Shown here: positions 8,205-61,022 of the stretch, in pieces
How positions within the stretch are numbered: the first letter of the stretch is position 1
Layout of the letters: each line of letters starts with the position of its first letter
Assembly (NCBI RefSeq): GCF_964194155.1
Contig: NC_135901.1
Span: 23,002,001-23,066,000, forward strand
Direction of reading: 5' to 3'
DNA from: Cetorhinus maximus
Lineage: Eukaryota
DNA length: 64,000 nt
Notes under the pieces: generated by a model
The model's input: only the letters and a program-made list of their open reading frames with translations
What the model was told of the DNA's origin: nothing
Database searches by the model: none
Translations under genes and position numbers: made by a program

Positions 8205-8800
8205 ATCATACCTGATTTCTCCATGGTGCAAGTTTCTTTGTGTTTCTCCAGGTTGGATGATCGATTGGAGCATTCTCCACACAAAACTTATGTGTGGTTT
8301 CTCCACACTTTGATTGCTGTGGTTTTATCAGGCTGTGAAACTGGTTAAAGCTCTTTCCACACACAGTTCACTGAAAGACTCTCACTGTGATAGGAGTGTC
8401 TCGGTGCTTTTCCAATTTCAATGATAATTTAAATGCACGGGCAAAACAAACAATTATTTCTCCTTCAAAAATAGCTGGAAAACTCAGCAGGTCTGACACC
8501 ATCTGTGGAGAGGAATACAGTTAACGTTTCAAGTCCGTATGACTCTTCATCTGAAAAGTCAAACGGACTCAAAACATTAACTGTGTTCCTCTCCACAGAT
8601 TCTGTCAGACCTGCTGAGTTTTTCCAGCTATTTTTGTTTTTGTTTCAGATTTCCAGCATCTGCAGTGTTTTGCTTTTATCAATTATTTTTCCTTCCCTAA
8701 TTGGAAGCTGACCATATATGAATGAAGTGATTGCATAAGATCTTTTGAGATTTTTGGTTTGAGTTTCCTGCCTGCAAATCCTCCCCTTCTAACCCCATGT
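8205..8800 (-). pseudogene. Truncated ZNF unit C
   Basis: Leader and degenerate fingers up to CTMEK; cut by L2; acceptor mutated. Confidence 0.7.
8467..8679. mobile_element. PLE-derived fold-back element
   Basis: Inverted arms of ~80 bp; 16-bp TSD caattatt t(c/t)tccttc at 8451-8466 and 8680-8695. Confidence 0.9.
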
Positions 8801-11240: not shown

Positions 11241-12113
11241 TCACTCAGTGAGAACTCGATGGGGTGTTGGAAAGGTGGCTGTCTGAGTGAATCCCTTTCC
11301 ACACAAGGACAAGGTGAATGGTTTCTTCGCATTGTGAACTTGCTGGTGTCTCAGCAGGTTGGATGACTGAGTAAATCCCTTCCCACACTTTGAGCAGATG
11401 AAAGGCCTCTCCCCAGTATGAATGCGCTGGTGTGCAATGAGGTCAGATGATCGCCTGAAACCAGTCCCACAGTGAGAACACCTGAATGGTCTCTCGTCAG
11501 TGTGAGCACGTCGATGGGACATCAGGTCCCCAGAACTTTTATAGCACTTGTCACAGTCCGAGCATTTAAAAGGTCTCTCATCAGTGTGAACTTGCTGGTG
11601 TCTCAGTAGATGGGATGATCTTGTGAATCCCTTCCCACACATGCAGCAGGTGAATGGCCTCTCCCCAGTGTGAATTCGTTGGTGTGTCAGCAGGTCTGAT
11701 GACAGAGTGAATCCCTTCCCACATTCAGAGCAGGTGAATGGCCTCTCCCCAGTGTGAACTCGCTGGTGTGTCAGCAGGTCAGCTGACCGAGTGAATCGCT
11801 TCTCACATTCAGAGCAGCTGAACAACCTCTCCCCAGTGTGAACTCGCTGGTGTGTCAGCAAGTTGGTTGAATTAATGAATCCCTTCCCACACTTGGAGCA
11901 GGTGAATGGCCTCTCCCCAGTGTGAACTCGCTGGTGTGTCAGCAGCGTGGACAACTGAGTGAATCCCTTCCCACATTCAGAGCAGGTGTACGGCCGCTCC
12001 CCAGTGTGAGTGCGTCGATGAGTTTCCAGCTTAGACTGGTAGCTGAATCCCTTCCCACAGTCCTCACATTTCCATGGTTTCTCTCTATTGTGGATGGTAC
12101 TTTTTCCTTCCAT
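11241..12113 (-). CDS. C2H2 zinc-finger protein D, 290 aa, 9 intact fingers
   Basis: ATG ORF with HTGERPF linkers; acceptor tttcacag at ~12223; further decayed fingers at 10935-11240. Confidence 0.9.
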
Positions 12114-12659
12114 GTTTAAAATCCAATGATATTCAGGTTACAATAAATTGGACGACTCCATCAGATCCTGATGTGATGTTTGGTTTGAGTTTCCCAACTG
12201 CAAATCCTCCTCTTCTAATATCCTGTGAAATTGATTTAAAACAGATAAAAAGGGAGTGAGAGTGAAACCAGTAAAACACAAAGACAGGCTGTGAAATTGA
12301 GCTGAATGAATCCGGTAATTTGTGGGGCTGACATCAGGGAAAAGTGGCCATGAAAACTGCTGGAATGTCGTAAAAAACCAACTGATTCACTAATGTCCTT
12401 CAGGAAAGGGAACCTGCCACCCGGTCTGGGTCTCACAAGACTCAAGCCTCCACAGGAGGACAGAACGTGAGAGGGGCAAGAGAGGCAGGGGGTGAAGGAA
12501 AGGGATTTTATATGTCTACAACTTGGCCAGAACTTTGACAAAAATTCCAAGAACCTCAACCTGCACCAACCAGAAAGACCAGGGTGGCAGGTGTATGTGA
12601 ACATCATCAACTTCAAGATCCCCTCCAAGTCACACATCACCTTGATCGAATGAACAGAA

Positions 12660-16390: not shown

Positions 16391-16875
16391 AAAATAATTT
16401 TGTTAACCAATTGAAATAAATTAATTTAAAAACACATATAAATTCTGTGCAGCGCTATGTTCCATTTTTCAAAGTGATTTAAATTTCTGCTCTCCTGTGG
16501 GAATGCGTTGAACTTTTAAAGCTTTTCCACTGGTTCCCCTCTCCCTCCTCCCCTATAGGTGCTGACTCTGGCTGGGTTAAAGCTCAAAGCCACTGGTTCC
16601 TCTCTCCTTACGTTTCGACCCCTGATAATGAATGTTCACTCTTTTATAGAATGATACATCACAGATAAAATTTAATTCAGCTCATCACACCTGTGCTCGC
16701 TTTTTTGAAGATCCATCCAATTAATTCCAAAGCCCTGCTGGCAGGGTCAGAACAATGTACATCTGCTGTAGTAATTCAAGTGGTGAATGGAAAAGGCTTT
16801 TCAGGTGGATGCTTCTTAGACACACCCATCCCTGTGGAAAGATCAGTGTATTTAGCAGATATAAAGGATTCACTG

Positions 16876-17330
16876 AAATAAAAACAGAAAGTACTGGAAA
16901 AACTCAGCAGGTCTGGCAGTGTCATTGGAGAGAGAAACAGAGTTAACATTTTGAGTCTAATACGACTCTCCTTCAGAACTGAAATGGACAGATTTTCATC
17001 CTTTATTCTGACATTAAAACTTACTGTGTCTTGTTTCTTTATCACAACCATTACCACTCCCTTTACCTTTCATTCAATTACATCTTTGTTGTTTAATCTC
17101 TCCCGCCCTCTAAATTATCCCTGACCTCTTTTGTTCGACCTGACACCATTTTTTCAACAGCATAAAACCCATCCCATTTCTACCTCTCTTCAGTTCCAAA
17201 GAAGACTCATATTTCACCCGAAACATTAACTCTGTTTCTCTCTCCACAGATGCTGCCAGACCTGCTGAGTTTTTCCAGAACCTTCTGTTTTTATTTCTGT
17301 TCTTCAGCATCCACAGGTATATTGCCTTCA
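16876..17330. mobile_element. PLE 3' end with inverted terminal copy
   Basis: Inverted arms 16876-16983 and 17190-17300; paralogous copy at 52700-52975. Confidence 0.8.
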
Positions 17331-19136
17331 AATAAGAGTTAAGCACACAGAGTGCCTGGCAGAGTTTAATTGAGTAATTCTACACCCGCCATATACCACA
17401 GTGACATTATTAAGAAAGGGCCAAGTTAAGAGAATATCCCTGGAATGACAGAGTCGATGAATTATGGAGTTAAAAATCAAAGGTATTAATATCCTGTAAT
17501 ATCACAAATACCAATTAGCTCGGATGTTGCAGTATGAAAGAACCCCACATAGTTGTCACATGAAAGAGGCAGTGTCCAATGGATGTATTAAGGCCACACC
17601 ACTGTTAAACTCCAGTGGGGTTTACGTGGATGGGCCTCGGTTTTATAAACAAGGACTGTATCAGACGAGTGCTGTGGCTTTGCTTCTTGACAGCCATAGT
17701 ACCTTTATTAAATATGCACCGTGATATTTAGCCCAGAAGTTTGAGGTTATTGTGATCACAGCCCTTCAATCTGTTACTGATGGAATCTCCAACTATTCTG
17801 AAAATATCCTTTAGTTGTAACTCCCTCAGAGAAAACCTACATCTCTGGCACAATAAAAACACAGCTTCTCCACAGCAGAAAGAAAATCACTCACCCACCA
17901 CTCCAAACTTCGAATGATTTGAGATCATGCTGGTAAGTGACTGGGACAAGTTGCTATTTGTAAGGTGAATGTACATCAGCAGGAGGAGTAAGTGAAGAGG
18001 GTGACGGTAATAACCAGGCCGACTGATTCACCAGGAAAGCTGCTCCAGAGGCGTTTCTTTGGGATCCACTCAAAACACAATCATTGGCACCGGTACGACA
18101 GTCTCCAGTTAAACCTGATTTTAAAACTTGTCAGGACCCTGACCCTGATGTGACTATGGTCAAAGAGGCCGTACACCATAGCAAAGACTTTCCCTCATCC
18201 CTCACAGCAAGTAAGGATTCACTCATCTTACACAATGAGGTTTTCTATCACAAGGATGGCTCTATTTTTGATTTAGGTCACACCTTGATGGCTTAGAAAA
18301 GAATGAATTTTGTTTATGAATCAAATTAGGAGAGTGTTTCTCTGTTTCAAGTCCTCAATATGTTATATAATTACTCTTGGTGACTGAGGATGCACCAGGA
18401 TGTCCATTACCTCCTGAACCTGTGTCTCACCTGTATCCAAATTAATCCGGCCCTGCGAAATGTAAGGTCCCAATGGGAACAACCCATCTGAATTATGTCG
18501 CTGGGTAACATGGGCAGGTCCACATCCCACAGTAAAGGAGGGGACTGGTAAATCCTGATAGTTATATGTATGTTGGCTGGTGGATTGAAGATTTCCCTGT
18601 CTGTAAAAATGATGCAGTCGCAACAGCTAAAACCTTGTGGGAACAAATCTTTACCAGATGTGGCATCCGGAAAAGGATAGTGAGTGATAATGATTCTCAA
18701 TTCACAGCAGAAGTAATGCAGCAGCTTTGTCATCTTGTAGGTGTGGAACAACATTTCCACATCCCCTATTACCCAGAGTCCAGTGGGATGGTCGGGAGCT
18801 TTAATCACTCGGGAGAAAAGACACTGACAAAAGCTGTCATGAGTGGAGCTGATGAACTGGTCAAGGCCAATGACTGGGTCACTGCCTTGCCTGGTGTCTT
18901 CATGACCATTCACTCCACTCCTGTTCAATCATCCGGTCACAGCCTATGAAAGGTCAGCCAATCCAGATTGTGAATCCCCCCGGGTGGCACTCCCCATGGC
19001 TACTGGACAGACTTAGGACCAGTTTCTCCACAACCCCCAACAAACTTTAACACCCTGATAAAAACAAAAGGCAAAAGTTGTTCTCACACTGAACAATTTC
19101 TCCTTTAACTCCTCTCACTTCCTCCAAATAAAAGGT

Positions 19137-20306
19137 GTGGCTATGGGTACCCGCAAGGGCCCCAGCTATGCCTGTCTCTTTATGGGGTATGTGGAACATT
19201 CCTTGTTCCAGTCCTACTCCGGCCCCCTCCCACAACTCTTTCTCTGGTACATCGATGATTACTTCGGTGCTGCTTCATGCTCTCGTCGGGAGCTGGAAAA
19301 ATTTATTAATTTTGCTTCCAATCTCCACCCCTCCATCATTTTCACATGGTCCATCTCTGACACATCTCTTCCCTTCCTTGACCTCTCTGTCTCAATTTCT
19401 GATGATAGACTGTCCACCAATATCCATTACAAGCCTACCGACTCCCACAGCTACCTCGACTACAGCTCCTCACACCCCGCTTCCTGTAAGGACTCCATCC
19501 CATTCTCTCAGTTCCTTCGCCTCCGTCGCATCTGTTCTGATGACGCCACCTTCAAAAACAGCTCGTCCTTCTTCCTTAACCGAGGTTTTCCACCCACGGT
19601 CGTTGACAGGGCCCTCAACCGTGTCCGGCCCATATCCCGCGCATCCGCCCTCACGCCTTCTCCTCCTTCCCAGAAACATGATAGGGTCCCCCTTGTCCTC
19701 ACTTATCACCCCACCAGCCTCCGCATTCAAAGGATCATCCCACGCCATTTCCGCCAACTCCAGCATGATGCCACCACCAAACACATCTTCCCTTCACCCC
19801 ACCTGGCGGCATTCTGTAGGGATCGTTCCCTCCGGGACACCCTGGTCCACTCCTCCATCACCCCCTACTCCTCAACCCCCACCTATGGCACCTCCCCATG
19901 CCCACGCAGAAGATGCAACACCTGCCCCTTCACTTCCTCTCTCCTCACCGTCCAAGGGCCCAAACACTCCTTTCAAGTCAAGCAGCATTTCACTTGCATT
20001 TCCCCTAACTTAGTCTACTGCATTCGTTGCTCCCAATGCGGTCTCCTCTACATTGGAGAGACCAAACGCAAACTGGGCGACCGCTTTGCAGAACATCTGC
20101 GGTCTGTCCGCAAGAAAGACCCAAACCTCCCTGTCGCTTGCCATTTTAACACTCCACCCTGTTCTCTTGCCCACATGTCTGTCCTTGGCTTGCTGCATTG
20201 TTCCAGTGAAGCCCAACGCAAACTGGAGGAACAGCACCTCATCTTCCAACTAGGCACTTTACAGCCTTCCGGGCTGAATATTGAATTCAACAACTTTAGA
20301 TCTTAA
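19137..20306 (+). CDS. PLE reverse transcriptase C-terminal half plus GIY-YIG endonuclease (partial)
   Basis: AMGT, YIDD, PFLD, CPRRRCNTC, VYCIRCSQCGLLYIGET, QPSGLN; 389 open codons. Confidence 0.9.
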   Translation: MAMGTRKGPSYACLFMGYVEHSLFQSYSGPLPQLFLWYIDDYFGAASCSRRELEKFINFASNLHPSIIFTWSISDTSLPFLDLSVSISDDRLSTNIHYKPTDSHSYLDYSSSHPASCKDSIPFSQFLRLRRICSDDATFKNSSSFFLNRGFPPTVVDRALNRVRPISRASALTPSPPSQKHDRVPLVLTYHPTSLRIQRIIPRHFRQLQHDATTKHIFPSPHLAAFCRDRSLRDTLVHSSITPYSSTPTYGTSPCPRRRCNTCPFTSSLLTVQGPKHSFQVKQHFTCISPNLVYCIRCSQCGLLYIGETKRKLGDRFAEHLRSVRKKDPNLPVACHFNTPPCSLAHMSVLGLLHCSSEAQRKLEEQHLIFQLGTLQPSGLNIEFNNFRS

Positions 20307-20676
20307 ACTCCCCCTCCCCCCATCCCCACCCCGTTTCTCCCCCCTCCACCTTTTTTTTCAATAATTTATATAGATTCTTCTTTTCCCACCTATTTCCATT
20401 ATTTTTAAATCTAAAACTAAAACTTTGTTAGTCTTTCCACCCCACCCCCACTAGAGCTGTACCGTGAGTATCCTGCCTTCCATTCTTAATTAGCACTTTT
20501 CTTAGATAATATCACCACCTTCAACACCTCTTTGATCCTTTTGTCTGTGACATCTTTTGATTATCTGCTCCTATCACTGCTTGCTTATCCCCACAATCAC
20601 CCCACCCTCAACTTCTCTCTCCCCCCCCGCTCCCCACCTTAGACCAGCTTATATTTCACCTCTCTCCTAACTATAC

Positions 20677-20719
20677 TCAGTTCTGCCGAAGGGTCGTGAG
20701 GACTCGAAACGTTAACTGA
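20677..20719 (+). ncRNA. Minimal type I hammerhead ribozyme motif (A6->C)
   Basis: TCAGTT CTGCCGA A GGGTC gtgag GACTC GAAA CG TT/AACTGA: 6-bp stem I, 5-bp stem II, palindromic ACGU stem III. Confidence 0.75.
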
Positions 20720-21459
20720 TTTCTTCTCCACCGATGCTGCCAGACCTGCTGAGTTTTTCCAGGTAATTCTGTTTTTGTTTTGAACTTTAACACCCTCCCT
20801 GCTACAGGCAGTGGAGAAGATGGTGCTGCCCATCACAACACCTCCAGGGAGAACCAACCCACCCATTACATTAACTGTTCAATGAGAGATGAAGTCACGT
20901 TAAAACGTTAATAACATTGTTAAACGGGGTTGGTCTTGGGGGTGGGGTGGGGGGGGGGGAGGGGGGGCTACCTGGGAATATCCATTTGATGATCTAAATA
21001 GATTGGGAGAAATAAATCTTATATTAGCAAATTGGAAACGAGGGAAGGAAATACAATATCTGTGTTACCATGGAGATCAGTGTAAACTGTACAAAATGAA
21101 AAGGTCAGATAATGAGGAGAATAAACGCTGTGTTTGATTTTATCCAACAGGGACAATATGTGGACGGTCATCGTGCTCCCGGGCTGTGTCCAGGCTGAAG
21201 TTCTGTTCCTGCCGTATGATCCTCCCCCAGATTGTCCTTTCTGAGCTCCAGCCAGGTGATGTTAAACACTCAGGTGGGAAAGACAAAAATCTACAATATG
21301 TTTAAAACAAAGCTGATTTATTTGATACAGAACCAGAATACTAAACTTCAGTTCAATTATTAACATCAGAAGAAAGAAACATCAACTCTCAGAATGAACC
21401 TGGTTCAGTCCTGGGTGTGATTAACAGCAGCAATAACAGCAGAATCTAACCCCTGCTGT

Positions 21460-28465: not shown

Positions 28466-28599
28466 GGGTCACTGTGGAACAGTTTTCTCCCACGTAATGT
28501 GACCAGTTTAAAGAAGTTAAAGAAGGAGCTATTAAGGAATGAGGCAACAGTTACTGTCACCCTGTTCGAAAACAAATGGAACAAAATGCACTTTTTAAA

Positions 28600-28955
28600 C
28601 TATTGTTTGATGAGATGTAGGGTCGCTGTCAAGACCAGCATTTATGACCAAAACCTAATTTCCATTGAACTTTGTGGCTTGATCGGCCATTTTAAAAAGC
28701 AGTAAAAAGTCAGCCACATCACCGTGGGCTGGGAGTCACATGTAGGTCAGACCAGGTAAGGACAGCAGATTTCACCCCCTGAAGGAAATTAGAGAACCAG
28801 GTGGGTTTTCATGACAATCGATGATAGTTTCATGGTCACCATTACAGAGGCTAGTTTTGAAATTCAGACTTATTGATTAAATTTCTCCCACTGCCATGGT
28901 GGGATTTGAACATGTGTCCGTGCGTCTGGGTTATTAGTCCAGTGACCTGATCACC
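28600..28955 (-). mobile_element. tRNA-derived SINE
   Basis: B box gttcaaatccc on the minus strand; body shared with 55290-55573. Confidence 0.7.
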
Positions 28956-30020
28956 TGCCCTTTGCAATTGAAACACAACATTTCAACGTCGGATGAAACC
29001 AGGAATTTCACTTGTAAATAAAATATTATGATCACTGCACTATGGAAATCAGTGTCAAATATCCCTGACCAAGGGGAACTGACCATACATCTCTCAGTCT
29101 AATTCACAAAAAGGAAATGCTGGGAATACTGAGTAGGTCAGACCGAGTCTGTGGAGAGAGAAACAGTTAATGGTCCAAGATACTGAACGTCCATTGGGAC
29201 AAGTTCACAGACACAGAAAGTGGCGGTTGGGGAAATAATAAAAGAGAAGTTTGTGACTGGGAGAGATTAAATAACAAAGGGGATGAGGATGCAAGGCAAA
29301 AGCGATGGTAATGGAACTAGTGATGAAACTACAGGTGGAAGAACGTTATGTATCTGTCATCTATTTCTGCTCTGATTGGAAATGTGTTGCTTCTCTGTTG
29401 ACCCATTTCACTTCACTAAAAACTCAATCTTTCTCCACCATTATCCTTTACAAACATTTAATTGAATAAACATAGGCAGTTACATAGGAAAACAATCATC
29501 ATTTTGAAGTGTTGAAACAATGAAACACATATTTTCATAAGCATCTTGTTCATGGTTCATGTTAATATTTTACAGATAATCTTTAGTTTGGGGAAGATTA
29601 AGGTTGTGAGGATAAGGTTATTAACATTCTAGGCTTTTGAAATTGCCACAACATCTCAAGAAATGGCAGTTCAAAGTGTTGTTTAACATGGTCTGCATAG
29701 AAGAGGGAGCGAGAGAGAGAAAGCTATAAAATGGCAGGTGAACTCATTTGGCTAGAAATCTGGAGACAGAATGTGTATGAGCTGTATTGTCCTGACTTTG
29801 TTAATAAGATAATTTTTTTAAGCAGGCTTCGAGGTTAAGAAGTTTGGTTAATTAACGTTAATATATATTGGTACATAGGCTCGCTTTTGAAATACCATCA
29901 TGCATTGTACATTAGACCACACCTACAAACTTGTCCCTTGTACTTCCAGTGAAGTCGAGGGCAGTTTTCAGTGGCTGCTTCAGTCGACTGAAAATCAGGG
30001 TGATGCACAGAAACAGTGTG

Positions 30021-30158
30021 GTTCTGATGAAAGGTCACAGACTGAAATACATGTAAACTTTGTTTCTTTCTCCACAGACGCAATCAGATCTGCTGAAAAT
30101 TCCAGCACTTTCTGTTTTTCATTCAGATTTCCAGCATCCGCAGTATTTTTCTTTTCCT
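30021..30158 (+). mobile_element. PLE terminus with hammerhead-like core
   Basis: CTGATGA aaggtc aca gact GAAA followed by the PLE tail. Confidence 0.65.
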
Positions 30159-30169
30159 GAACTGGACAG

Positions 30170-30670
30170 TGCTGAGAAGGTGGAGCTCATTGCAAGAAGG
30201 GTTTGAGATCCCCATCTGAGCTGGAAACTGTTGAGTAAAATCACAGCATGAAAAGATCATCACCATCTGGAAGTGGAAGGGGATTCAGTCGGTCATCCCA
30301 TTTACTGACTCAATAGCAGTCGGACTGCAGAGAGACTTTTCAGACATTTCAGGAGTGAGAAAGGATTTGCTTAATTTTCTCACCAATTTAGAAAGTTCAA
30401 AGGATTTGATTCACAATCAGCGCTTTCTTACTAGAAAGAGACATCTTAAGAGTTCTGGGCCTTGGGAAAAAAAACATTTGTTTCCCCCACGTTCTGAGAC
30501 TCCAGTGAGTTTGAATTTAATTGTTGAAGTGTTAATTTCTATTAATTACACCCAGGACAGAACTATGGTGGAAGACCCGTGCACTTTGGTTGCTGTTTCA
30601 ATTAATGTGATAATGTCATATCTTGACCCTATGACTCCAATCGATCACAAAACACGATTTTCTATTCAAC
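30170..30670 (+). pseudogene. Very decayed ZNF relic upstream of P5
   Basis: gggtttgagatcccatctgagctggaaact (GFxxPSELET); inverted paralog of 26400-27130. Confidence 0.6.
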
Positions 30671-30699
30671 AATATCGCTGCTCAATGGAATTTTTTTTT

Positions 30700-31110
30700 C
30701 AGATTTCCAGCATTCGCAGCGGGGCAGAATGTGCCCTATCCTCGCTGCAGGAAGACCTTGCGCAGGCGCAATACTGGGTGTGAGACGAGCATTGTGGGTG
30801 CTTTTAGGGGAGCATGCGCAGTTGCTGCTTGCCCCAAGAGCTGGTCGAAGGAGATGACAATTTACGAATGGTGGCAAGTAACTGAAGCCGGTAGATGGGG
30901 AGGATTGGAGGCGGTGGAGTGGGCAGTGAGATTTTATAAAGATCCACTGGGGGCTTCGACACCCGAATAAATTCTAGTGGCTCCGCGGTCGCAGCGAACG
31001 GTCGTGGGGGCAGCTACGGACCGCGGTTCTCGGTAAAATGGCCGAGTTAACGGCCGCCATCTTTACTGGGATCAATGTGCAGCGGTACGCATGCGCAGTC
31101 ATCCCTGTCA
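30700..31110 (+). promoter_or_regulatory. Promoter P5 of gene G
   Basis: CpG-rich; TTCCAGCATTC, GAGCATGCGCA, TTATAAAG, GCCGCCATCTT, CGCATGCGCA. Confidence 0.75.
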
Positions 31111-31254
31111 GCAGGAGGAGAGACTATTGTGAATTTCCTGGACTGACGGGTGGATTTTGGAAACTCCTTTCACAGGAGGTTAGAAGGGGAGGATTTACAC
31201 ACAGCAAATTCAAACCAAGAGAAATGTTTGTCTCGTCTGACATAGGTCTTTAAA

Positions 31255-31484
31255 ATAAAAACAAAAATTGCTGGAAAAACTCAGCAGGTCTGACAGCATC
31301 TATGGAGAGAAAGACAGAGTTAATGTTTCGAGTCCATATGACTTCTTCAGAACTCAAGAGTCATACGGACTCGAAACATTAACTCTGGCTTTCTCTCCAC
31401 AGGTGCTGTCAGACCTGCTGAGCTTTTCCTGCAATTTTTATCTTTGTTTCAGATTTCCAGCATCCACATTATTTTGCTTTTAAC
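31255..31484. mobile_element. PLE-derived fold-back element
   Basis: Inverted arms of ~90 bp; exact 12-bp TSD TAGGTCTTTAAA at 31243-31254 and 31485-31496. Confidence 0.9.
31317..31355 (-). ncRNA. Minimal hammerhead motif with intact core boxes
   Basis: GAGTT CTGAAGA AGTC atatg GACT C GAAA CA TT/AACTC; stem III has G->A. Confidence 0.7.
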
Positions 31485-32069
31485 TAGGTCTTTAAAGTCC
31501 TCATTAGGATGGGCAGGTTGATGCGGACAGAATGTTTCCACTTGTTGGTCCATCCAACGCTGGAGGTCATGCGTACACAATAGTTACAAATAAATCCAAC
31601 AGGAAAACTGGAGATGCTTCTTTTTTGAGGCAGTAATTAAAATGTGGAACTCGCTGCTACAGTAAGTGGCTGAGAAAAATATCTGAGACTCTTTCAAAAA
31701 GAAACTGGATGAGAACATGAGAGAAAAGGGATTAGAAAGATCAACTGAACGGCTGAGATGAGGTTGGCAGAATGGGAGGGAATTCATGTGGAGTAGAAAC
31801 TCCAGTACAGACTAGATAAAATGAATGGCCTGTTTGTGTAATGTATACTCTGTGTAATTCTTTGTAAACTTATTTTACAGGGTATTAGAAGAGGAGGATT
31901 TGCAGACAGGAATATCAAACCAAACTGCACATCTGACAGAGTCAACTGGTTTATTGGGACCTGAAGATTTGTACTTCTGAAGGGATTTAATCGACCGTCT
32001 CAGCTGGAAACCGGTGAGAGGCTGTTCACCTGCTCCTCCTGTGTGAAGGGATTGATAGAGCTGGGAAAC

Positions 32070-33494
32070 ATGCTGACACGACAGCGAGCTCACAACAGTG
32101 AGAGGCTGTTCACTTGCTCTGCGTGTGGGAAGAAATTCATGTGTTCATCCAACCTGCTGGCACACCAACTCGATCACATTGATGAGAAGCCTCTTCAACG
32201 CTCTGACTCTGGGAAAAACATTAAAATCTCCGAGGAACTGGCCCAACACCAGCAAGTTCACACTGATGAGAGACCGTTCAGCTGCTCCCACTGCGGGAAG
32301 AGGTTCAGGCTGTCCTCCCGCCTCGCGGAGCACCAGCTCCTTCACACACACGAGAGGCCATTCAGCTGCTCTCACTGTGGGGAGTCGTTCAGCGAGTCAG
32401 TGCATCTCACTGAGCACCAGCGAGTTCACACCAAGGACAGGCCATTCAGCTGCTCCCAGTGTGGGAAGGCATTCACTCAGTTTTCAAGCTACACTAAGCA
32501 CCAACTGGTTCACTCAGATGAGAGACCTTTTAAATGCTCTGAGTGTGAGAAAACCTTTAAAAGAAGCATTGATCTGCTGAGACACCAGTGCATTCACACT
32601 GGGGAGAGACCGTTCCCCTGCTTTGTGTGTGGAAAGAGATTCACTCATTCTTTCCACCTTCTGACACACAAGCGTGGTCACACTGGGGAGAGACCATTCA
32701 TCTGCTCCGTGTGTGGAAAGAGTTTCATTCGGTCATCCAGCCTTCTGATACACCAACGAGTTCACACCGGGGAGAGACCGTTCACCTGCTCCGTATGTGG
32801 CAAGGGATTCACTCGTTCAAGCCAACTTCTGATACACAAACGAGTTCATACTGGAGAGAGACCGTTCACCTGCTCCGTGTGTGGGAAGAGATTCACTCAG
32901 TCAGCCAACTTGCGGACACATCAGCGGGTTCACACCGGGGAGAGGCCGTTCATCTGCTCCGTGTGTGGCAAAAGTTTCTCTCGTTTGTCCTACCTTGAGG
33001 TACATGAGCGAGTTCACACCGGTGTGAGGCCGTTCACCTGCTCCACGTGTGGGAACAGATTCGCTCATTCATCCCATCTGGTGAGACACCAGCGCAGTCA
33101 CACTGGAGAAAGGCCGTTCACCTGCACTGTGTGTGGGAAGGGATTCACTTGTTCATCTTATCTGGTGAGACACCAGCGCATTCACACTAGGGAGAGGCTG
33201 TTCACCTGCTCCTTGTGTGGGAAGGGATTCCCTGATTCAACCCACTTGCTGAGACACCACCGCATTCATATGGGGTTGAGGCCGTTCTCCTGTTCTGTGT
33301 GTGAGAAGGGATTCACTAAGTCATCCAACCTGCTGAGACACCAACGCGTTCACACTGGGGAGAGACCATTCACCTGCTCCGTGTGTGAGAAGAGATTTAC
33401 TCGGTCATCCGACCTGCTAAAACATAAGCGAGTTCACATGTTACCAGAAAAGTTGGATTCAGTTGTTGATGCTGAGGATCACATCCAGAACTGA
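32070..33494 (+). CDS. C2H2 zinc-finger protein G, 15 intact fingers
   Basis: ORF open from 32043, first ATG at 32070; acceptor ttttacag at 31880. Confidence 0.92.
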   Translation: MLTRQRAHNSERLFTCSACGKKFMCSSNLLAHQLDHIDEKPLQRSDSGKNIKISEELAQHQQVHTDERPFSCSHCGKRFRLSSRLAEHQLLHTHERPFSCSHCGESFSESVHLTEHQRVHTKDRPFSCSQCGKAFTQFSSYTKHQLVHSDERPFKCSECEKTFKRSIDLLRHQCIHTGERPFPCFVCGKRFTHSFHLLTHKRGHTGERPFICSVCGKSFIRSSSLLIHQRVHTGERPFTCSVCGKGFTRSSQLLIHKRVHTGERPFTCSVCGKRFTQSANLRTHQRVHTGERPFICSVCGKSFSRLSYLEVHERVHTGVRPFTCSTCGNRFAHSSHLVRHQRSHTGERPFTCTVCGKGFTCSSYLVRHQRIHTRERLFTCSLCGKGFPDSTHLLRHHRIHMGLRPFSCSVCEKGFTKSSNLLRHQRVHTGERPFTCSVCEKRFTRSSDLLKHKRVHMLPEKLDSVVDAEDHIQN

Positions 33495-33574
33495 ACCTTT
33501 TCTCCTTTCTAACTCTAGATTATTTCAGTTTTCATACTTTCAGTTACTCTCATGGACAAGTCCCAGCTCTGCGT

Positions 33575-34550
33575 ACCTCCTAGAGTGTCTCAACTTTTTA
33601 CGATTTACATCAATGACTTAGATAAGGGGAGTGAAGACATGGTAGCTAAATTTGCAGAGGACACAAAGATAGGTAGGAAAGTATGTTGTGAAGAGGACAT
33701 GAGGAGGTTGCAGATGGATATAGGTAGGTTGAGTGAGTGGACAAAGATCTGGCAAATGAAATTTAATGTAGGAAAATGTGAAGTTCACTTTGGCAGGGAG
33801 AACAAAAAAGCAGAGAATTACTTAAATGGAGAATGGCTGCATAATTCTGAGGTGCAGAGGGATCTAGGTGTTCTAGTACATGAGTCACAAAAAGTTAGTA
33901 AGCAGGTACAGCAAGTAATTAAAAAGGCTAATGGAATCTTTATTCCGAGAGGAATTGAACATAAATGTAAGGGTTTCACGCTTCAGTTATACAGGACATT
34001 GGTGAGATTGCACCTCGAATACTGTATACAGTTTTGGTCTCCTTATTTAAGGAAGGATATATATGCATTGGAGGCAGTTCAAAGGAGGTTTACTAGATTG
34101 ATACCTGAAATGAGTGGCTTGTCATATGAGGAAAGGTCGGACAGACTGGGCTTGTTTCCACTGGAGTTTAGAAGAATGAGGGGTGATTTGATTGAAGTAT
34201 ACAAGATCCTGAATGGCCTTGACAAGGTGGACGTCGAAAGGATGTTTCCTCTTGTGGGTGAGTCCAGAACTAGGGAGCACTGCTTCAAAATTAGGGTCGC
34301 CCTTTTAGGACAGAAATGAGAATTTTTTTTCTCTCAGAGCGTTGTGCAACTTTGGAACTCTCTGCCTCAGAAGGCGGTGGAGGCGGGGTCACTGAATATT
34401 TTTAAGGCAGAGGTAAATAGATTCTTGTTAGGTAAGGGAATCAAAGGTTATCAGGATTGAAACACAAGAAGACCAGCCATGATCTTATTGAATGGTGGAG
34501 CAGGCTCAAGGGGCCGAATGGTCTACTCCTGTTCCTATTTCTCGTGTTCT
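33575..34550 (+). mobile_element. CR1 LINE 3' part
   Basis: LFTIYINDLD, KFAEDTKIG, HLEYCIQFWSP. Confidence 0.92.
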
Positions 34551-34599
34551 TATGTCTCTCCTAGCCTTAGCATCCAGTGAAGGTATCGGTAACACACCC

Positions 34600-35200
34600 A
34601 GGATCACTATTGCTGAAAGTTTGCTGAACATTTCTGAAAAAAGAGACATCCTGTTGAAGGTTTTCATTTTGCACTCATCAGGACAGGTTTGTCAGAATAC
34701 CAATTGTAAATGGAACAATGATTTACACTACATGAGAAGAGGGGCTGATTGGTTGGCAAGAGAACTCTGATTGGTGGAGGTGTTACCATGGAGAATGCAC
34801 CAGTCAGTAGTTAACTGCCAAGCTTTTGTTAAAATTCAAACCAGGTCAATTCTGGTTGGTCATGGCATTGTCATGGGGAATGAACCATGAAATGGCTGTC
34901 CCCAAGCTTTTGTTTCGTTGAAAATGGTGCAATGTGTGGACATGTCCTTTGCAAACAGAGAGAGCAGGACAGGTGTGTGAATACATGAGTTTCTAGCATG
35001 TGAAAATGAGTCATACTGTGAGCATGACTGATAATTTTGTCAGTGTCATTCTTAGCCTAATCAGATTTGTTTAGCAAGTGTTGTCCAATTAGGGAATCAC
35101 TTCTAATGTTGGACACTTTGTTATGAGTTTTGCAAGTCTGGGCCGGTTGAGTATGGTCAGTACTTTGTTGTGAACAGCCGAAGTGATGCATTGTTTGACA
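34600..35200 (-). mobile_element. Second PLE family, 3' end
   Basis: Minus-strand DSLIGQHLLN..HMLE (GIY-YIG tail), then hammerhead at 34651-34686. Confidence 0.7.
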
Positions 35201-35224
35201 TGAATGATACCAGAAATGTGTGTG

Positions 35225-35660
35225 TTTATATATGAGGAAAGGATTGACGGGCTGGGTCTCTTCTCTCTTGGATAAAGGAGACTGAGAGGTGACCTAATAG
35301 AGGTCTTTAAAATGATGAAAGGTTTTGATAGAGAGGATACAGAGAGAATGTTTCCTCTTGTGGGGAAGAGAGACCATCAATATGAGATAGTCAATCAATA
35401 TGAGATAGTCACCAAGAATCCAATAGGGAATTCAGAAGAAACTTCTTCACCCAGAGAGTGGTGAGAATGTGGAACTCGCTACCACAAGGAGTGGGTGAAG
35501 TGAATAGTGCAGATGTATTTAAGGGGAAACTGGACAAGCGCAAGAGGGAGAAGGGAGTAGAGGGTTACAATGATAGAGTTAGATGAGGAAAGATGGGAGG
35601 AGGCTTGAGTGGAGCATAAACACACGCTGAATGACATGTTTCTGTGCCGTATATCCTATG
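35225..35660 (+). mobile_element. CR1 3' fragment
   Basis: RRLRGDLIEVFKMMKG; RVVRMWNSLP. Confidence 0.85.
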
Positions 35661-35689
35661 TAATCAAGCTCTGAATCCACTATTATTTC

Positions 35690-36360
35690 TGTTTGTGTCG
35701 GGAAGCACAATGGCATTAAACTCAGACTAAACTCAGACTCTCCCAAGCCATTGTCCTTACCACCCTGCTGTATGGAGCAGAATCCTGGGTCTGCTATCAG
35801 AGCCACATCAAAGCTCTGGAATGCTTCCACCAAAGACACCTGAGGTTCATCACGAAAATTCGATGGCAGGACAAAATTACAAAACAATGAGATTCTCCAT
35901 CGTGCTGGGCTCAACAGCACAGAGACCACCCTCCAGAAAATTCCACTAAGATGGCCAGACCATGTACCCCACATGGATGATGACAGAATCCCCAAGCAGA
36001 TCGTCAATGGGGAACTGTCTCGGGGTAAACAACGTCAAGGTGGTCAGTATAAATGATACAAGGACACCCTAAAAATGCGCCTTACAAACTTGTGCATTGC
36101 AGACCACCTCTCTGGGGAAACACTGCAGCCGACCGGCCCATGTGGAGGCAAGCACTGAAATTTGGTTCAGCATGTTTCAAGGACCATCTACACCAGACTT
36201 GCAACATCCGATGTGCCCAGAGGAAGACCAGAGGTGGAGCAGCTGCAGAAGTTCCCCCAGCACCAACAACAACAGCATGAACTGCCAGTTTTGTGTGTGT
36301 CCATGTCGATCCCACATCGGACTCTTCAGTCATGACAGGAGCCACAGAAAATGATGCAAT
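35690..36360 (+). mobile_element. RTE-clade LINE 3' part
   Basis: KALECFHQRHLR..RWQDKI, RIPKQIVNGEL, CRSHIGLFSH. Confidence 0.85.
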
Positions 36361-36759
36361 CATTTACAGCCTGGACATACTCCAACAACGAGGAGTCTAC
36401 CCCAAGATTATCCCTGTTCTCCGCATTGGGGAACTATACTCTGTCTGTATGATTGCAGTGCTGTTAATAAAGTCAGGAAAAGCTAATCTGTTATTGTGAG
36501 TTTGATTATCTGGTGTCTGAAACAATAAGATTCAACATTTAGATTCAACAAGATGAACAAGGAAACACATCACAGCCCAATATTCCAGCTCAATATTCAC
36601 AGGAGAAAGTCTGTTATCTAACACCTCGAGTTGACAGAACAGAGAAAGATCCCAACAGTAAGAAACCCTCTAATCATTTGTAAATATTTTTCAAGTGCTG
36701 ACAGATTCCAACCATCAGTTTCCATTACATTGAAGTTAATGGAAGGTGAGAGAGTGGTT

Positions 36760-37325: not shown

Positions 37326-37489
37326 GACAAGTGGGCCTCGTGTTTTTATCTGAGACAGGCCTCAGCCCAGTCATTTCCTCCAAGTGTTGATGTGATGGTT
37401 CAAGCTAAGAGGTGCCAGGTCTCAGGAGCAGCAAGAGCAGTAAATAAATTGAAATGTCAGTGAACACTGATATAGTTTTCCTATATCTA

Positions 37490-38400: not shown

Positions 38401-39094
38401 TCCCTCAATTGTGGGTGATATTTCTCCCCATTCTCCTGGACACTGAATCCATTTTGTTCTAAACTGAGTTCAATGTCAGACAGTTCAGGGAGTCGAGAAT
38501 CATTCACCCCTAGACCTACACTGACAGGTAAAACCCCAGACAGTTCCTCAGTCAGGATTCCTCTGGTTTTTCACCATATATTAATCAGGATACTGAAACT
38601 CATCTTTCTTACAGTCCACTCCTGGAGACCCCACTCCCTGAGCCCACAACCTTCAGCAGGGTCAGTGGTGGAGCTCCACAGCGGGAGTGATCCCAGAGTA
38701 ATTGTCGGGATCACACTGGCATGGGTTTTCCGAGTCGGGTATGTTTAGTTATCCTGGTGTCTCACAGACACACATCAATAAAACAGGCAATTCCTGGAAA
38801 CACACTGCAGCTCCTTCTTTATCTGGAGATCAAGTGTCTGTAGTATAATTGTCCCAGCAGTTATCCTGTGAACTCCCCCATTTGCTATTTTAATGCAGAC
38901 TTTAACAAATACATTTTAAACAGGTATATTTTAAATGAGTTAACACTGTCCTGAAATGGTAGCTATAGTATAATTACCACAGTCATCTTCAGACTGGAAA
39001 CTTAAACCTGCCATTTCACTTTCAATCAGGAACAGTCACAGTTTTACACCAATCTCTGATTTGACAGCACGTTTCCAGCATTAACTGTTGTTCT

Positions 39095-39311
39095 AAAAAC
39101 AGAGATTGCTGCAAAATCTCAGCAGGTCTGGCAGCATCAGTGGCGAGAGAAACAGAATTAACGTTTTGAGTCCAAAATGACTCTTCTTCGGTTCTGAAAC
39201 ATTAACTTGGTTATTCTCTCTCCAGAGATGCTGCCAGACCTGCTGAGTTTTTACAGCACTTTCTGTTTTTACTTTCGATTTGCTGCATCCACACCATTTA
39301 TGTTTTATTTC
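39095..39311. mobile_element. PLE-derived fold-back element
   Basis: Inverted arms; 11-bp TSD actgtt(g/a)ttct at 39084-39094 and 39312-39322; empty paralogous site near 56365. Confidence 0.9.
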
Positions 39312-39789
39312 ACTGTTATTCTTCTTGATTCTAAACACAGTTGTAAAGGAGCCTTTAGTTCCATCGGAACCATGGAAGAGAGCAGCTGGGACACAATATT
39401 ACATGCCTCAGGATTAATCCACATGGGGGTTTTGCTGTCAGTGAAGAGAGATGAGAAAGACCAAAGTGCCATTTATCCCTCTCAGTGTGACCCTGAAGGA
39501 CTGTGTCCAGGCTGAAGTTCTGTTCCTGCCGTATGATCCTCCCCCAGATTGTCCTTTCTGAGCTCCAGCCAGGTAATGTTAAACGCTCAGGTGGGAAAGA
39601 CAAAAATCTACAACAATGAGTTTAAAACAAAGCTGATTTATTGGACATTTTTTCAGAATATTAAACTCCAGCCCAGTTGGAGGGTTTATTAAAAGCATCA
39701 GAAGCAAACTCCAACTCTCAGAATGAACATAGTTTATTCCTGGATGTGATTAACAGCTGCAAGAACAGCAGAATCCAATTCCTGCAGTG

Positions 39790-49337: not shown

Positions 49338-49455
49338 AATGTATATCTGCTGTAGCAATGTAAGAGGTGAATGGAAAAGGTTTTTCAGTTGGAAACTTCT
49401 CAGGCACACACACCCCTGTGGAAAGATTGATTGACTAGTGTGCTGAGGAGATATT

Positions 49456-52400
49456 TCCCTCCTAGTGTTTGACAAGGTTTTTACCAAAACTCGCTTTCAC
49501 AGCCATATTTCCTTCCTCAGTGACTGTCTCCATCTCCGATTTACCTCGCGTGAATTCCAAATGAAGTTCCATCCTTCATGTTTCGAATCCATCCAGGATT
49601 ATAGGTATTTCTGGGACATACAATATTCCTCGGAGTGGTGTTCTCACTGTATCCTGAGATCCACACTCAGTGCCATGCGCTGCCATATGTGCACTCTCTC
49701 TCTCTCTCCAGCAGCAGCTACTCACACTATCTCAAGGCTGTCCTTGTCCCCAGTTTCATTTTATTCTTTGTCTCATCTGATGCCTTAACATGAAACTCTT
49801 TCTCTTCCTTTCAAGTGTTAAGGGACACAAGCTCCAACAACTCATTGATACCAATGCCCATCCAGGACCCTCCACCCCTTCCTATCCCTCTGACCCCATC
49901 CTGTCTTCTGACCCCAGCCCGTGCCATTTTTTCACCATACGCTCTGACCTTCCCCTCTCTGATGCTGAATGTTCAATATTCAGCAAAGGACTCTGTTTCA
50001 AACCCTTACACCCTCACCTCAATGAATTTCGGGCTCGGCATGATGCTGAACTCTTCTTCCACTGCCTTCATCTCTGTGCTCACTTCTTTGGGCAGGAGTC
50101 CTCCCCCACCCCCCCACCGTGAAAGGATCCGTTCAACGGATCCTTTTACCCCCTCCAGTATTATCCCCCCACTTGGACCCCTCCCTCTGGCATCTTACCT
50201 GCTATTGATCTTTTCATTGAGAACTGTTGGCGTGACATCAGCTGTCTCAATTTCTCTGCTCCTCTCACCCACTCTAACCTGTCTCCTTCTGAAATTGCTG
50301 CACTCCATTCTCTTAGGTCTAACCCTGACTTTATCAAACCTGCCGACAAGAGTGGTGCTGTTGTTGTCTAGCATACTGACCTCTACCTCGCAGAGGCTGA
50401 GCGCCAAGTCTAAGACACTTCCTCCTACCTCCCACTGGACCATGACACCACCACCGAACATCAAGCCAGCGTTTCCAGGACTGTCACTGACTTCATCTCC
50501 TCTGGAGATCTTTCCTTCCAACACCAGACAGCCCGCTTCTACCTCCATCCCAAAACCCACAAACAGGACTGTCCCGGTAGATCGATTGTGTCAGCCTGTT
50601 CCTGCCCCACGGAACTCATTTCTTCTGATCTTTGCTCCGTTTTCTCTCTCCTTGTCCAGTCTCTTCTCACCTACATCCGCGATTTCTCTGACGCCCTACA
50701 TCATATCAACAATTTCCAGTTTCCTGGCCCTATCCACCTCCTCTTCACCATAGACGTCCAATCCCTCTATACCTCCATCCCCCACCAGGATGGTCTGAGG
50801 GCTCTCTGCTTCTTCCTTGAACATAGGCCCGAACAATCCCCATCCACCACCACTCTCCTCTATCTGACTGAACTTGTTTTCTCATCGAACAATTTCTCCT
50901 TAAACTTGTCTCACTTCCTCCAAATAAAAGGTGTGCCTATGGGTACCCCGTGGGTCCCAGTTATGCCTGTCTCATTATGGGGTATGTGGAACATTCCTTG
51001 TTCCAATCCTACTCAGGCCCCCTCCTACAATTCTTTTCCCAGTACATCGATGACTGTTTTGGTGCCGCTTCATGCTCTCATCTGGACCTGGAAAAATGTA
51101 TCTATTTTGCTTTCAATTTCCACCTCTCTATCACCTTCACATGGTCCATCTCTGACACTTCCCTTCCCTTCCTTGACCTCTCTATCTCCGTTTCGGATGA
51201 TGACTGTCCACCAATATTCACTACAAGTCCACCGACTCCCACAGTTACCTCGACTACAACCCCTCACACCTTGCTTCCTGTAAGGATTCCATCGCATTCT
51301 TAGTTCCTTTGCCTCTGTTGCATCTGTTCCAATGATGCCACTTTCCAAAACGGTGCTTCTGACATATCTCCCTTCTTCATTAACCACGGTTTCCCTCCCT
51401 ATGTGATTGACAGGGCCCTCAACCGTTTCTGACCCATCTCCAGCACCTCTGCCCTCGCACCTTCCCATCCCTCCCAGAACCATGATAGGGTCCCCCTTGG
51501 TCCTCACTTTTCACCCCACCAGCCTCCACATTCAAAAGATCATCCTCCACCATTTCCATAACTCCAGCATGATGCCACCACCAAACACATCTTCCCTTCA
51601 CCCCCCACCGCCCCTGCGCCCTCCTCGTCGACATTCTGTTGGGACCATTCCTTCCGGGACACCCTGGTCCACTCCTCCATCACCCGCACACCTCATCCCC
51701 CTCCCACGGCACCCTCCAATGCTATTGCAGAAGGTGCAACACCTGCCCATTTACCTCCTCCCTCCTCACTGTCTAAGGTCCCAAAGCAGCGCTTCACTTG
51801 CACCTCCTTCAATTTGGTCTACTGCATTCACTGCTCCCAATGCCTTCTCCTCTGCACTGGGGAGACCAAATGCAGACTGGGTGACCGCTTTGCGGAACAC
51901 CTTCAGTCTGTCCGCAAGCATGACCCAGACCTTCCTGTCACTTCCCATTTCAACACATCATCTTGCTCTCATGCCCAAATGTCCATCCTTGGCCTGCTGC
52001 AATGTTCCAGTGAAGCCCACTGCAAACTGGAGGAACAGCACCTCATCTTCCGATTAGGCACTTTACAGCCTTAACTTAACACTGAGTTCAACAACTTCAG
52101 ACCATGAATTCTCTCCTCTATCTTCATCCCTTTTTTTAAATGTATTTTTATTTTTTATCCACTTATTTTCATTTTTATTCATTTATTCATTGTTTTATCC
52201 CCTTTTTAGCCCTTTTTCCATCCTTTATCCCCAACCACCGCCCCCTCCCACCACCCTACCCCCAAAAGGGCCACCTGTTACTCGTTCCATGTTGTTCTTT
52301 TCAGAGTGCTTACCCTTGTTCTGCTATTATCACATTTTGCTTTGTTATCTTTATTCCACTATCAGCACCTTTTTTGGCCCTTACCACTACCATTAACACT

Positions 52401-52675
52401 CCCTTTGTCTTTTTGTTCATGACACCTTTGTCAATCTCTCCTTTGCCCTCACCTATCACTATCTATCTAGCTTCACCTGCTCCACCACATCCCCTCCCCC
52501 CAACTAAACAGTATAAATGTCATCACATTTCTACCTCTCTTTAGCTCTGAAGAAGTCATATGGACTCAAAATGTTAACTCTGTTTTTCTCTCCACAGATG
52601 CTGCTAGGCCTGCTCAGTTTTCCCAGCATTTTCTGTTTGTATTTCAGATTTCCAGTATCCGCAGTATTTTGCTTT
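49456..52675 (+). mobile_element. Long degenerate Penelope-like element
   Basis: KGLCF, KPADK, TIDVQSLYTSIP, YIDD and GIY-YIG remnants; exact 15-bp TSD TGCTGAGGAGATATT at 49441-49455 and 52676-52690; hammerhead at 52543-52579. Confidence 0.93.
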
Positions 52676-53116
52676 TGCTGAGGAGATATTAATGGTTCAT
52701 TGAACTAAAAACAGAAAGTGTGGAAAAACTCAGCAGGTCGGGCAGCCTCTGTGGAGCGAGAAACAGAGTTAATGTTTCGAGTCCAATATGACTCTTCAAA
52801 ACAGAACCGGTCTTTTGTCCTGTATTCTGACAGTAAAACTTACAGTGCTTTGTTTCTTTATTATAACCACTCCCATTGCCTTTTGTTCCATGACATCTTT
52901 GTTATTTAATCTATCCAGCTCTCGAACCTATCACTGGGCTTCTCGTTTGTTCTACCCAACCCTCCCCGCTTTCTCACTGAAAGCATCTACAGAAATACTT
53001 GTTTCTGAAACAATATTCTGTAACGTTGAACAGACAGTGTCCATTTAACAACCTGATCTCACATGGAATCTACCTCCTTTTGACAATTTCACATCGGAAA
53101 TTGCCGGGCCAGACAT

Positions 53117-56113: not shown

Positions 56114-56439
56114 AGGAGCTGTCCTGATGGATTCAGACTGCGACATTCCATTGTTCCAGATGCGTTTGTTCTAGGAACCAGATTTAAGGGCCCTATCATT
56201 GGAGCTTCGAGGGGGGTGAATGGCCAACTCTTAATTCTTATGTTCATGTAATTACCACAGTCATTTTCAGACTGGAAACTTAAACCTGCCGTTTCACTTT
56301 CAGTCAGGAACAGATCACAGTTTTACACCAATCTCTGATTTGACAGCACATTTCCAGCATTCACCGTTGTTCTTCATGACTCTAAACACAGTTGTAAAGG
56401 CGCCTTCTGTTCCGTGTCTAGGAGCTCTGAACCAGGGAA

Positions 56440-60859: not shown

Positions 60860-61022
60860 TAAAATACGGCGAATGCTGGAAATGTGAAATAAAAACAGAA
60901 AGTTCTGGAAATCCTCAGCAGGTTTGGCAGCTTCTGTGAAGAGAGAGAAACAGATTTAACATTTCCAATCCAATATGATTCTTCTTCAGAACTGAGTATT
61001 TCCAGCATTCTGATTTCATTTT
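60860..61022 (-). mobile_element. PLE terminus with hammerhead-like core and short inverted arm
   Basis: Minus cagtt CTGAAGA agaatc atattg gattg GAAA tgtt at 60953-60994. Confidence 0.75.

What the first reader, a model, noticed from the sequence alone, without database searches (positions are those of the whole stretch)
8467..8679. ~220-bp fold-back insertions made only of two opposed PLE ribozyme termini, each with its own TSD
Seen: 8467-8679, 31255-31484 and 39095-39311 each comprise an inverted partial PLE terminus joined at the hammerhead region to a forward terminus. TSDs are 16, 12 and 11 bp, and an empty site near 56365 shows the third was inserted. The central junctions differ between copies. 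Known: PLEs often carry inverted, truncated pseudo-LTRs. Inference: these are either minimal abortive PLE insertions or a non-autonomous ribozyme-bearing family. Transcribed inside ZNF introns, they would form long dsRNA hairpins.
Basis: partly seen in the sequence, partly recalled or inferred. Interest (0 to 1): 0.75.

Follow-up and report, generated by a model that had tools for sequence, protein, structure and literature searches.

The report
Penelope double run-off hairpin insertions
These short mirror-image insertions are real and very common stumps of a Penelope-type jumping gene, each made anew rather than copied from a master, and their shared seam likely marks the start of the element's RNA, which would show that it copies itself onto both strands of the cut DNA at once.

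Summary
All three fold-backs, their TSDs (16, 12, 11 bp) and the empty site are real. They are ends of an abundant endonuclease-bearing Penelope-like element (PLE); intact 924-codon frames exist in this genome. Fold-backs are common: 17 in 1.15 Mb of random DNA, about 59,000 per genome. They are not a self-propagating family. Each copy's two arms share subfamily variants (distance 0.063 within copies, 0.15 between). Recurrent junctions occur in both orientations relative to the tail (6/4 and 5/4). Of 67 copies, 59 pair one tail end with one tail-less end, matching the two RT start sites shown in vitro for another PLE. Arm ends, and solo copies too, pile up at the 5' edge of the hammerhead, about 30 nt behind a conserved TATA-like box: a likely transcription start. 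Best reading: two cDNAs primed from the staggered nicks run off the RNA 5' end and are end-joined. Only 1 of the 6 window arms keeps the hammerhead core. Only the copy at 31255 is plausibly intronic. No usable RNA data were available. The architecture is known; the mechanistic record is the value. The scan noted this before on other DNA.

The parts
8451..8466 (+). A: left TSD copy (16 bp, 1 mismatch to right copy)
8467..8555 (-). A: inverted, tail-less PLE arm, from RT start site 2 back to about +3 of the inferred transcript (a paralog keeps the ancestral junction letter)
8556..8679 (+). A: forward PLE arm from about +11/+14 to the tail end; lacks the hammerhead CUGA core
8680..8695 (+). A: right TSD copy
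31243..31254 (+). B: left TSD copy (12 bp, perfect)
31255..31355 (-). B: inverted arm reaching +1 plus one further base; the only one of the six arms with the hammerhead core motif
31356..31484 (+). B: forward arm from +11 to the tail end
31485..31496 (+). B: right TSD copy
39084..39094 (+). C: left TSD copy (11 bp, 1 mismatch)
39095..39189 (-). C: inverted arm ending at about +7
39191..39311 (+). C: forward arm; appears to begin at about +2 and to lack hammerhead stem II (about 21 nt) between two GAA repeats
   Evidence: sequence; the deletion reading is inferred
39312..39322 (+). C: right TSD copy
56363..56373 (+). Empty paralogous target site of C, about 10 bp past the stop of ZNF frame 56374-57000 (-)
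49453..52677 (+). Decayed near-full-length copy of the parent PLE kind (82% to the active ORF region), with 3' terminus holding the TATA-like box, initiator-like site, hammerhead and tail
19075..20782 (+). Young 5'-truncated PLE copy with GIY-YIG domain, ending at site 2; its protein finds the intact 924-codon frames
16873..17327 (.). Longer version of the same architecture: inverted arm ending near +1 joined to a longer forward part
60861..60994 (-). Tail-bearing arm starting at +1, with a short inverted stub beyond it

Best explanation
Each fold-back is a separate, very short insertion of an endonuclease-bearing Penelope-like retroelement, likely made when both nicked target strands primed reverse transcription at the element's two internal start sites and both copies ran off the 5' end of the RNA and were joined head to head. 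Coordinates below count from the A of the initiator-like site. Shown: the TSDs (mode 14 bp); one tail end plus one tail-less end in 59 of 67 copies; arms identical at birth; arm ends piled at about -1 to +7; a TATA-like box about 30 nt upstream; intact parent elements. Inferred: +1 is the transcription start; the hammerhead occupies the first 39 nt of the RNA; the start sites used are those in the 5' leader, about 100 and 140-155 nt from the RNA end; both cDNAs often come from one RNA; the seam is closed by microhomology-guided end joining. Nearly all products lack the TATA-like box and are predicted to be dead ends.
For: Parent: a head-to-tail unit of about 3.29 kb with RVT_1 and GIY-YIG matches, E 8e-7 and 5e-4, both just under Pfam cut-offs. 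Ends: 59 of 67 fold-backs pair a site-2 end with a tail end, 2 have two tails, 1 has none, 5 have a shortened arm; PMC11167929 showed two internal RT start sites bracketing the tail, and extension of both strands, in vitro. De novo origin: distance between own arms 0.063, against 0.153 to other forward arms and 0.152 to other inverted arms (n=64, p=6e-12); no column differs between left and right arms at p<0.05; 11 diagnostic columns are 81-95% concordant against 50-64% expected. The two commonest junctions occur in both orientations, 6/4 and 5/4; arms differ at 0-2 of 88 sites in 14 of 20 young copies. Fixed 5' end: 36 of 62 junction-unbiased arms end at -4..+7, 5 further upstream, 21 downstream. 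Solo copies pile up there too; 9 of the 23 have a TSD scoring 10 or more that ends at -2..+7. Of 22 inverted pairs listed for the young subfamily, 5 have gaps of 113 bp or less, none 114-391, and 17 longer. In 56 long copies, T-29, A-28 and A-26 are held by 50, 49 and 49 copies, and -1 is always a pyrimidine. Coupling: 8 of 17 long inverted copies have arm ends within 100 nt of each other (permutation mean 1.9, p=5e-5). Some seams carry short locally templated fillers.
Against: No RNA 5'-end data: the start site is inferred from DNA alone (the runs are contigs of other organisms). An extra G at -1, the mark of copying a cap, appears in about 7 of 28 arms that reach +1 (hand count over), no more than chance. 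None of the copies with a whole frame inspected begins at +1; several run far into the previous unit, so other templates (tandem read-through or circles) exist. 9 of 17 long inverted copies are asymmetric, and 7 of the 8 symmetric ones were fetched because their open frames looked equal (among all 16 pairs listed the count is still 8, taking 2 unfetched pairs as asymmetric). The AG at +1/+2 also follows a pyrimidine tract like a splice acceptor. Several young arms reach -5 to -11, so the edge is not absolute.
Confidence: 0.72

Rival explanations
1. The fold-backs are a non-autonomous family that is transcribed and retrotransposed as a unit.
For: High copy number (17 in 1.15 Mb). Five junction types make up 31 of 49 real junctions in the young subfamily (hand tally). 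Near-identical copies of A, B and C exist.
Against: The near-identical hits share flanks: 12 other loci for B, 13 for A, 27 for C. Recurrent junctions come in both polarities and with concerted variants on both arms. Left and right arms show no systematic difference. Nearly all products lack the TATA-like box (3 of 67 junctions reach -17 or further upstream).
Confidence: 0.05
2. One cDNA folds back on itself and primes its own second strand (self-priming, as proposed for inverted pLTRs in PMC3846280); the seam is the hairpin tip.
For: Arms are identical at birth. The commonest young junction equals the product of the cDNA end pairing through its CAG/CTG inverted repeat. Long copies are often symmetric.
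Against: Snap-back of the tail-primed cDNA predicts that the tail arm is always the longer one at the seam. The tail-less arm is longer in 6 of 10 copies of that junction, in 13 of 31 junction-unbiased short copies (tail arm longer in 14, equal in 4) and in 6 of 7 long symmetric copies with one tail. A cDNA primed at site 2 cannot template the tail.
Confidence: 0.12
3. The pile-up at +1 is not a transcription start but a splice acceptor or a reverse-transcriptase arrest at the ribozyme.
For: A pyrimidine tract plus YAG ends at +2. In Drosophila virilis the Penelope intron ends at the 5' end of helix I (PMC4209133).
Against: A spliced RNA should carry the cDNA on into an upstream exon, but most seams have fillers of 0-11 nt with no recurring foreign sequence and several solos abut their TSD. 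Arms pass through the whole ribozyme before stopping, whereas a structural arrest should stop at its 3' side. The TATA-like box sits at the canonical distance.
Confidence: 0.1
4. The hairpins have been kept for a host role as dsRNA in ZNF transcripts.
For: They would form stable hairpins if transcribed, and all three lie in ZNF gene units.
Against: Arms have decayed apart by about 10-12%, with C>T and G>A changes dominating (181 of 375 polarised changes). An empty paralog of C exists. Three or four copies in 64 kb is within reach of a background of about 15 per Mb plus local duplication.
Confidence: 0.04

Closest known systems
Insertion unit of EN+ Penelope-like elements: pLTR, adjacent inverted 5'-truncated copy, one-sided 30-40 bp tail, TSD (PMC8557442 Fig. 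2 legend; Adineta Pen2a_Av in PMC3846280; passages read, plus the Discussion of the latter)
   Same: Head-to-head inverted arm, tail on one side only, TSD, short palindromes or overlaps at the seam, TATA and initiator-like motifs in the pLTR.
   Different: Here the whole insertion is only the two termini (about 190-250 bp). It numbers tens of thousands per genome, and both arms stop at one template position. That paper explains inversions by self-priming, which the polarity data here do not fit.
Poseidon element of Anolis, in vitro (PMC11167929; abstract, results and part of methods read)
   Same: Two internal RT start sites bracketing the tail, both target strands cut and extended, predicted dimer, hammerhead shortly upstream and not needed for insertion.
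   Different: That work did not describe minimal fold-back insertions or run-off at a transcript start. Here the ATG lies downstream of the tail (+189), not inside the hammerhead, and the protein has a cysteine-rich RT-EN linker of the Neptune/Nematis kind.
Minimal hammerheads of metazoan PLEs (PMC4209133; parts 1-2 of 4 read)
   Same: Short helix I (4 bp), bulged base before helix II, palindromic minimal helix III. That paper notes pairs of motifs 100-700 bp apart on opposite strands in Schistosoma.
   Different: It did not resolve such pairs as insertions. In most fold-backs the motif is cut by the seam: 13 of 67 keep a full canonical core on at least one arm.
Non-LTR retrozymes (bioRxiv 10.64898/2026.07.22.740005; parts 1-2 of 5 read)
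   Same: Non-coding, PLE-derived, carry type I hammerhead sequence.
   Different: Retrozymes are head-to-tail tandem repeats with a complete ribozyme in each unit. These are head-to-head, mostly without a complete ribozyme, and made de novo.
L1 twin priming (recalled, not read here)
   Same: A second nick primes a second cDNA, giving a 5' inversion closed by microhomology.
   Different: In L1 the two cDNAs copy different, non-overlapping parts of the RNA. Here both copy the same stretch from two fixed sites, which gives a near-perfect palindrome.

Membership tests
EN+ Penelope-like element insertion | Terminus belongs to an element with one ORF carrying RT and C-terminal GIY-YIG | tested here: met
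   Long copies join this terminus to a 924-codon frame with RVT_1 (413-577) and GIY-YIG (827-862), both just below Pfam cut-offs
EN+ Penelope-like element insertion | Tandem or partial-tandem units forming pLTRs | tested here: met
   Head-to-tail units with a period of about 3290 bp in loci L302-L311
EN+ Penelope-like element insertion | Inverted truncated copy at the 5' side and a tail at one end only | tested here: met
   59 of 67 fold-backs; in the young subfamily ends lie at +98..+109 and +146..+156
EN+ Penelope-like element insertion | Target-site duplication | tested here: met
   50 of 67 have a TSD scoring 9 or more, mode 14 bp (21 copies)
EN+ Penelope-like element insertion | Minimal hammerhead in the pLTR | tested here: met
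   Core and stems read from the alignments; stems I and II fold in L301 +1..+44, z -0.2, so not more stable than shuffles; Rfam gave no hammerhead hit in the window
Neptune clade of PLEs | Zn-finger-like cysteine motif in the RT-EN linker, and placement in an RT tree | tested here: inconclusive
   A C-x4-C-x2-C motif precedes the EN (feature per PMC8557442, shared with Nematis); no tree was built
Non-LTR retrozyme | Head-to-tail tandem units, each with a complete type I hammerhead | tested here: not met
   Head-to-head arms; 1 of 6 window arms with the core; 13 of 67 copies with one complete core
Non-LTR retrozyme | Self-cleavage and circular RNA | not testable with these tools
   No raw RNA reads were listed
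Self-propagating non-autonomous family (SINE- or MITE-like) | Copies descend from a master: fixed junction and polarity, arm-specific shared variants | tested here: not met

The most novel reading that the evidence does not exclude
Tens of thousands of these hairpins record a PLE integration route unlike LINE priming. A protein dimer primes both staggered nicks from two fixed internal sites on one RNA, both cDNAs run to the same RNA 5' end, and the insertion is closed in the middle by end joining. The element's transcript begins with its hammerhead, so self-cleavage would remove the first 35 nt, including the cap.
Probability: 0.55. Interest if true: 0.65.

Novelty: new variant of a known kind. 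Interest (0 to 1): 0.42.

Why it matters
How PLE tandem and inverted structures arise is an open question in the papers read (PMC8557442, PMC11167929). These minimal insertions give exact predictions for an existing in vitro system: which start site each strand uses, where cDNAs stop, and which seams form. They also place a candidate promoter directly before the ribozyme. For annotation, about 59,000 hairpins of some 200 bp in one genome are a large potential source of dsRNA and of false miRNA calls (Rfam gave miRNA-model hits below threshold on B), and they should not be entered as a new MITE or retrozyme family. The three window copies themselves look like ordinary decaying insertions.

Tried and rejected
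Rfam scan of the window: no hammerhead family, only sub-threshold hairpin hits. RNA: no RNA holder listed for 30600-33600. Four of the 19 listed runs, contigs of other organisms, were laid on 28500-42500; they cannot show starts, strand or editing, and change classes were balanced (A>G 127 vs G>A 123 in X1), so this counts neither way. Written-back ADAR editing: no one-strand A>G excess over the set (A>G 44, T>C 46) or in A, B, C; one copy (L021) shows 5 T>C among 7 changes and was not pursued. Cap-derived extra G: inconclusive. Second pile-up behind the hammerhead cut (+35|36): young arms start at +37, +40, +44, +44, +45 and one full-length copy at +38, against 3 arms in +5..+35; older junction-unbiased fold-backs show 18 arms in +8..+35 and 3 in +36..+45, so it is not established. 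An acceptor-plus-ATG at +55 is not kept in the active subfamily and was dropped. A DNA search with the active terminus found nothing because its words are too common. Junction sharing among top hits of A or B as query was set aside as biased toward the query's junction. Literature searches listed no paper on minimal PLE fold-backs or their pile-up at a transcript start; the library lacks most subscription papers and repeat databases, and supplements were not opened.

Full report
Observation. The three elements, their TSDs and the empty site are as described. Each has a tail-less inverted arm on the left and a forward arm about 35 bp longer on the right. They fold as hairpins far beyond shuffles. 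The window holds 20 matches to the terminus profile in all, including a longer inverted element at 16873-17327 and two long PLE remnants. That the host is a shark is my recollection from the look of the repeats; no call establishes it.

What the terminus belongs to. Long copies extend from the terminus into a GIY-YIG coding region. The window protein 19062-20303 finds 101 scored matches, many with 924-codon open frames. These carry RVT_1 and GIY-YIG matches in head-to-tail units of about 3.29 kb. Counting from the A of an initiator-like site as +1, the unit reads: TATA-like box at about -31 to -25; hammerhead at +1 to +39, with its predicted cut after +35; a first group of insertion ends at +98 to +109; tail ends at +146 to +156 in the young subfamily; ATG at +189. 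The promoter reading is inferred from spacing. The +1 A was fixed by the motif I used to anchor the alignment; the TATA-like letters and the pyrimidine at -1 were not.

How common. In 23 blocks of 50 kb picked without regard to content, 17 fold-backs occur among 100 termini: about 15 per Mb, or roughly 59,000 per genome (Poisson range 9-26 on the count of 17). For one young subfamily a junction-spanning pattern has 362 matches against 2 for the control pattern. The best genome hits of A, B and C are mostly duplicates of the ZNF cluster with the same flanks and were left out of all counts.

Family or repeated accident. Across 64 of 67 fold-backs with a long enough arm, an arm is much closer to its own partner (0.063) than to other copies' forward arms (0.153) or inverted arms (0.152). 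No column separates left from right arms, and subfamily variants are shared by both arms of a copy. In the young subfamily, 49 of the 50 listed junctions are real; by hand tally they fall into five recurrent types (10, 9, 6, 4 and 2 copies) and 18 single ones. I fetched all 19 copies of the two commonest types and one other. Each type occurs in both orientations relative to the tail (6/4 and 5/4), in several sequence variants changed on both arms at once. Arms differ at 0-2 of 88 sites in 14 of the 20; five of the other six have a shortened outer arm or TSD call and one an indel. A master copy cannot give this pattern; repeated joining of two cDNAs with the same end can.

Where the arms stop. 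In the junction-unbiased sets (random blocks and hits to tail-side queries), 36 of 62 arms end at -4 to +7, 5 further upstream and 21 downstream. Solo termini pile up at the same place. Among 22 inverted pairs listed for the young subfamily, 5 are short fold-backs and none has a gap of 114-391 bp. The arms run through the hammerhead, so its cut does not set the main seam. A weak second group just behind the cut is not established. The edge is soft by a few bases (-5 to -11 in some young arms), and the cap-G test was inconclusive.

Mechanism. In vitro, a related PLE cuts and extends both target strands and starts reverse transcription at two internal sites that bracket the tail (PMC11167929). 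Here 59 of 67 fold-backs pair one end of each kind. Arm ends are coupled in long copies too: 8 of 17 lie within 100 nt, with the selection caveat given under Best explanation. In short copies the two arm ends correlate weakly (rho 0.42, p 0.017, n 31). Either arm can be the longer at the seam, which argues against one cDNA snapping back. The simplest account is two cDNAs, one from each nick, copying the same stretch and often stopping at the same RNA end. When the start sites in the 5' leader are used, that end is the transcription start and the product is a hairpin of about 220-250 bp. Any truncated copy that keeps its 3' TATA-like box could also supply such short templates; this is untested. 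Against a single template class, none of the whole-frame copies inspected begins at +1.

Ribozyme and host context. One of the six window arms keeps the core motif, and 13 of 67 fold-backs keep a full canonical core on one arm. In the predicted hairpin the motif is paired with its complement. B lies between a CpG-rich promoter-like stretch and the acceptor before ZNF frame 31965-33494, so it may be intronic, although an acceptor-like exon start also lies just upstream of it. A lies about 130 bp into a decayed ZNF exon start on the minus strand. C lies 3' of degenerate finger repeats, and its empty paralog is about 10 bp past a ZNF stop. No RNA evidence was obtainable.

Known and new. Inverted pLTR, one-sided tail, TSD and hammerhead are described PLE features (PMC8557442 and PMC3846280, passages; PMC4209133, parts 1-2). 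Retrozyme membership fails on architecture. Eight searches of the paper library listed nothing on minimal fold-backs or the pile-up at a transcript start. Earlier notes of this scan report the same kind of element and similar readings in this and other genomes; I formed my reading before opening them and do not count them as support.

Verdict. Real; a minimal variant of a known insertion type; not a new mobile family; useful as a large, testable record of PLE integration. Interest 0.42.

Noticed in passing
L301:7107-7145 and matches: The currently active subfamily (5,602 exact terminus matches) has a non-canonical hammerhead core, with C in place of the conserved A6; other subfamilies have A or U there.
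   Followed up: no
L312-L318: Multi-kilobase, nearly perfect palindromic PLE insertions whose two arms break within 4-91 nt of each other at arbitrary points in the ORF; the tail-less arm is the longer in 6 of 7.
   Followed up: partly
Random blocks, e.g. C3 block 10305, C2 block 28739, C4 block 5002: Several old termini are cut at the GTTAAC just behind the hammerhead core by another repeat ending in AAAATTC..CC, perhaps a small DNA transposon that favours this site.
   Followed up: no
window 52701-52956 and 16873-17327: Two elements join an inverted arm ending near +1 to the same forward 3'-UTR segment, with similar sequence right at the seam; possibly a recurrent template jump or an old duplicate.
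   Followed up: no
L182, L207, L230, L018 junctions: Seams contain short duplications of neighbouring hammerhead sequence, like templated insertions of end-joining repair.
   Followed up: partly
   Followed up: partly
window ZNF frames 11241-12137, 31965-33494, 40812-41945, 56374-57000 and C24 at large: The window lies in a C2H2-ZNF cluster that is heavily segmentally duplicated across C24 and many small contigs; fold-backs A, B and C are carried along in at least 13, 12 and 27 other loci.
   Followed up: partly
L021: One fold-back shows 5 T>C changes among 7 polarised arm differences, a possible one-strand editing scar or chance.
   Followed up: no
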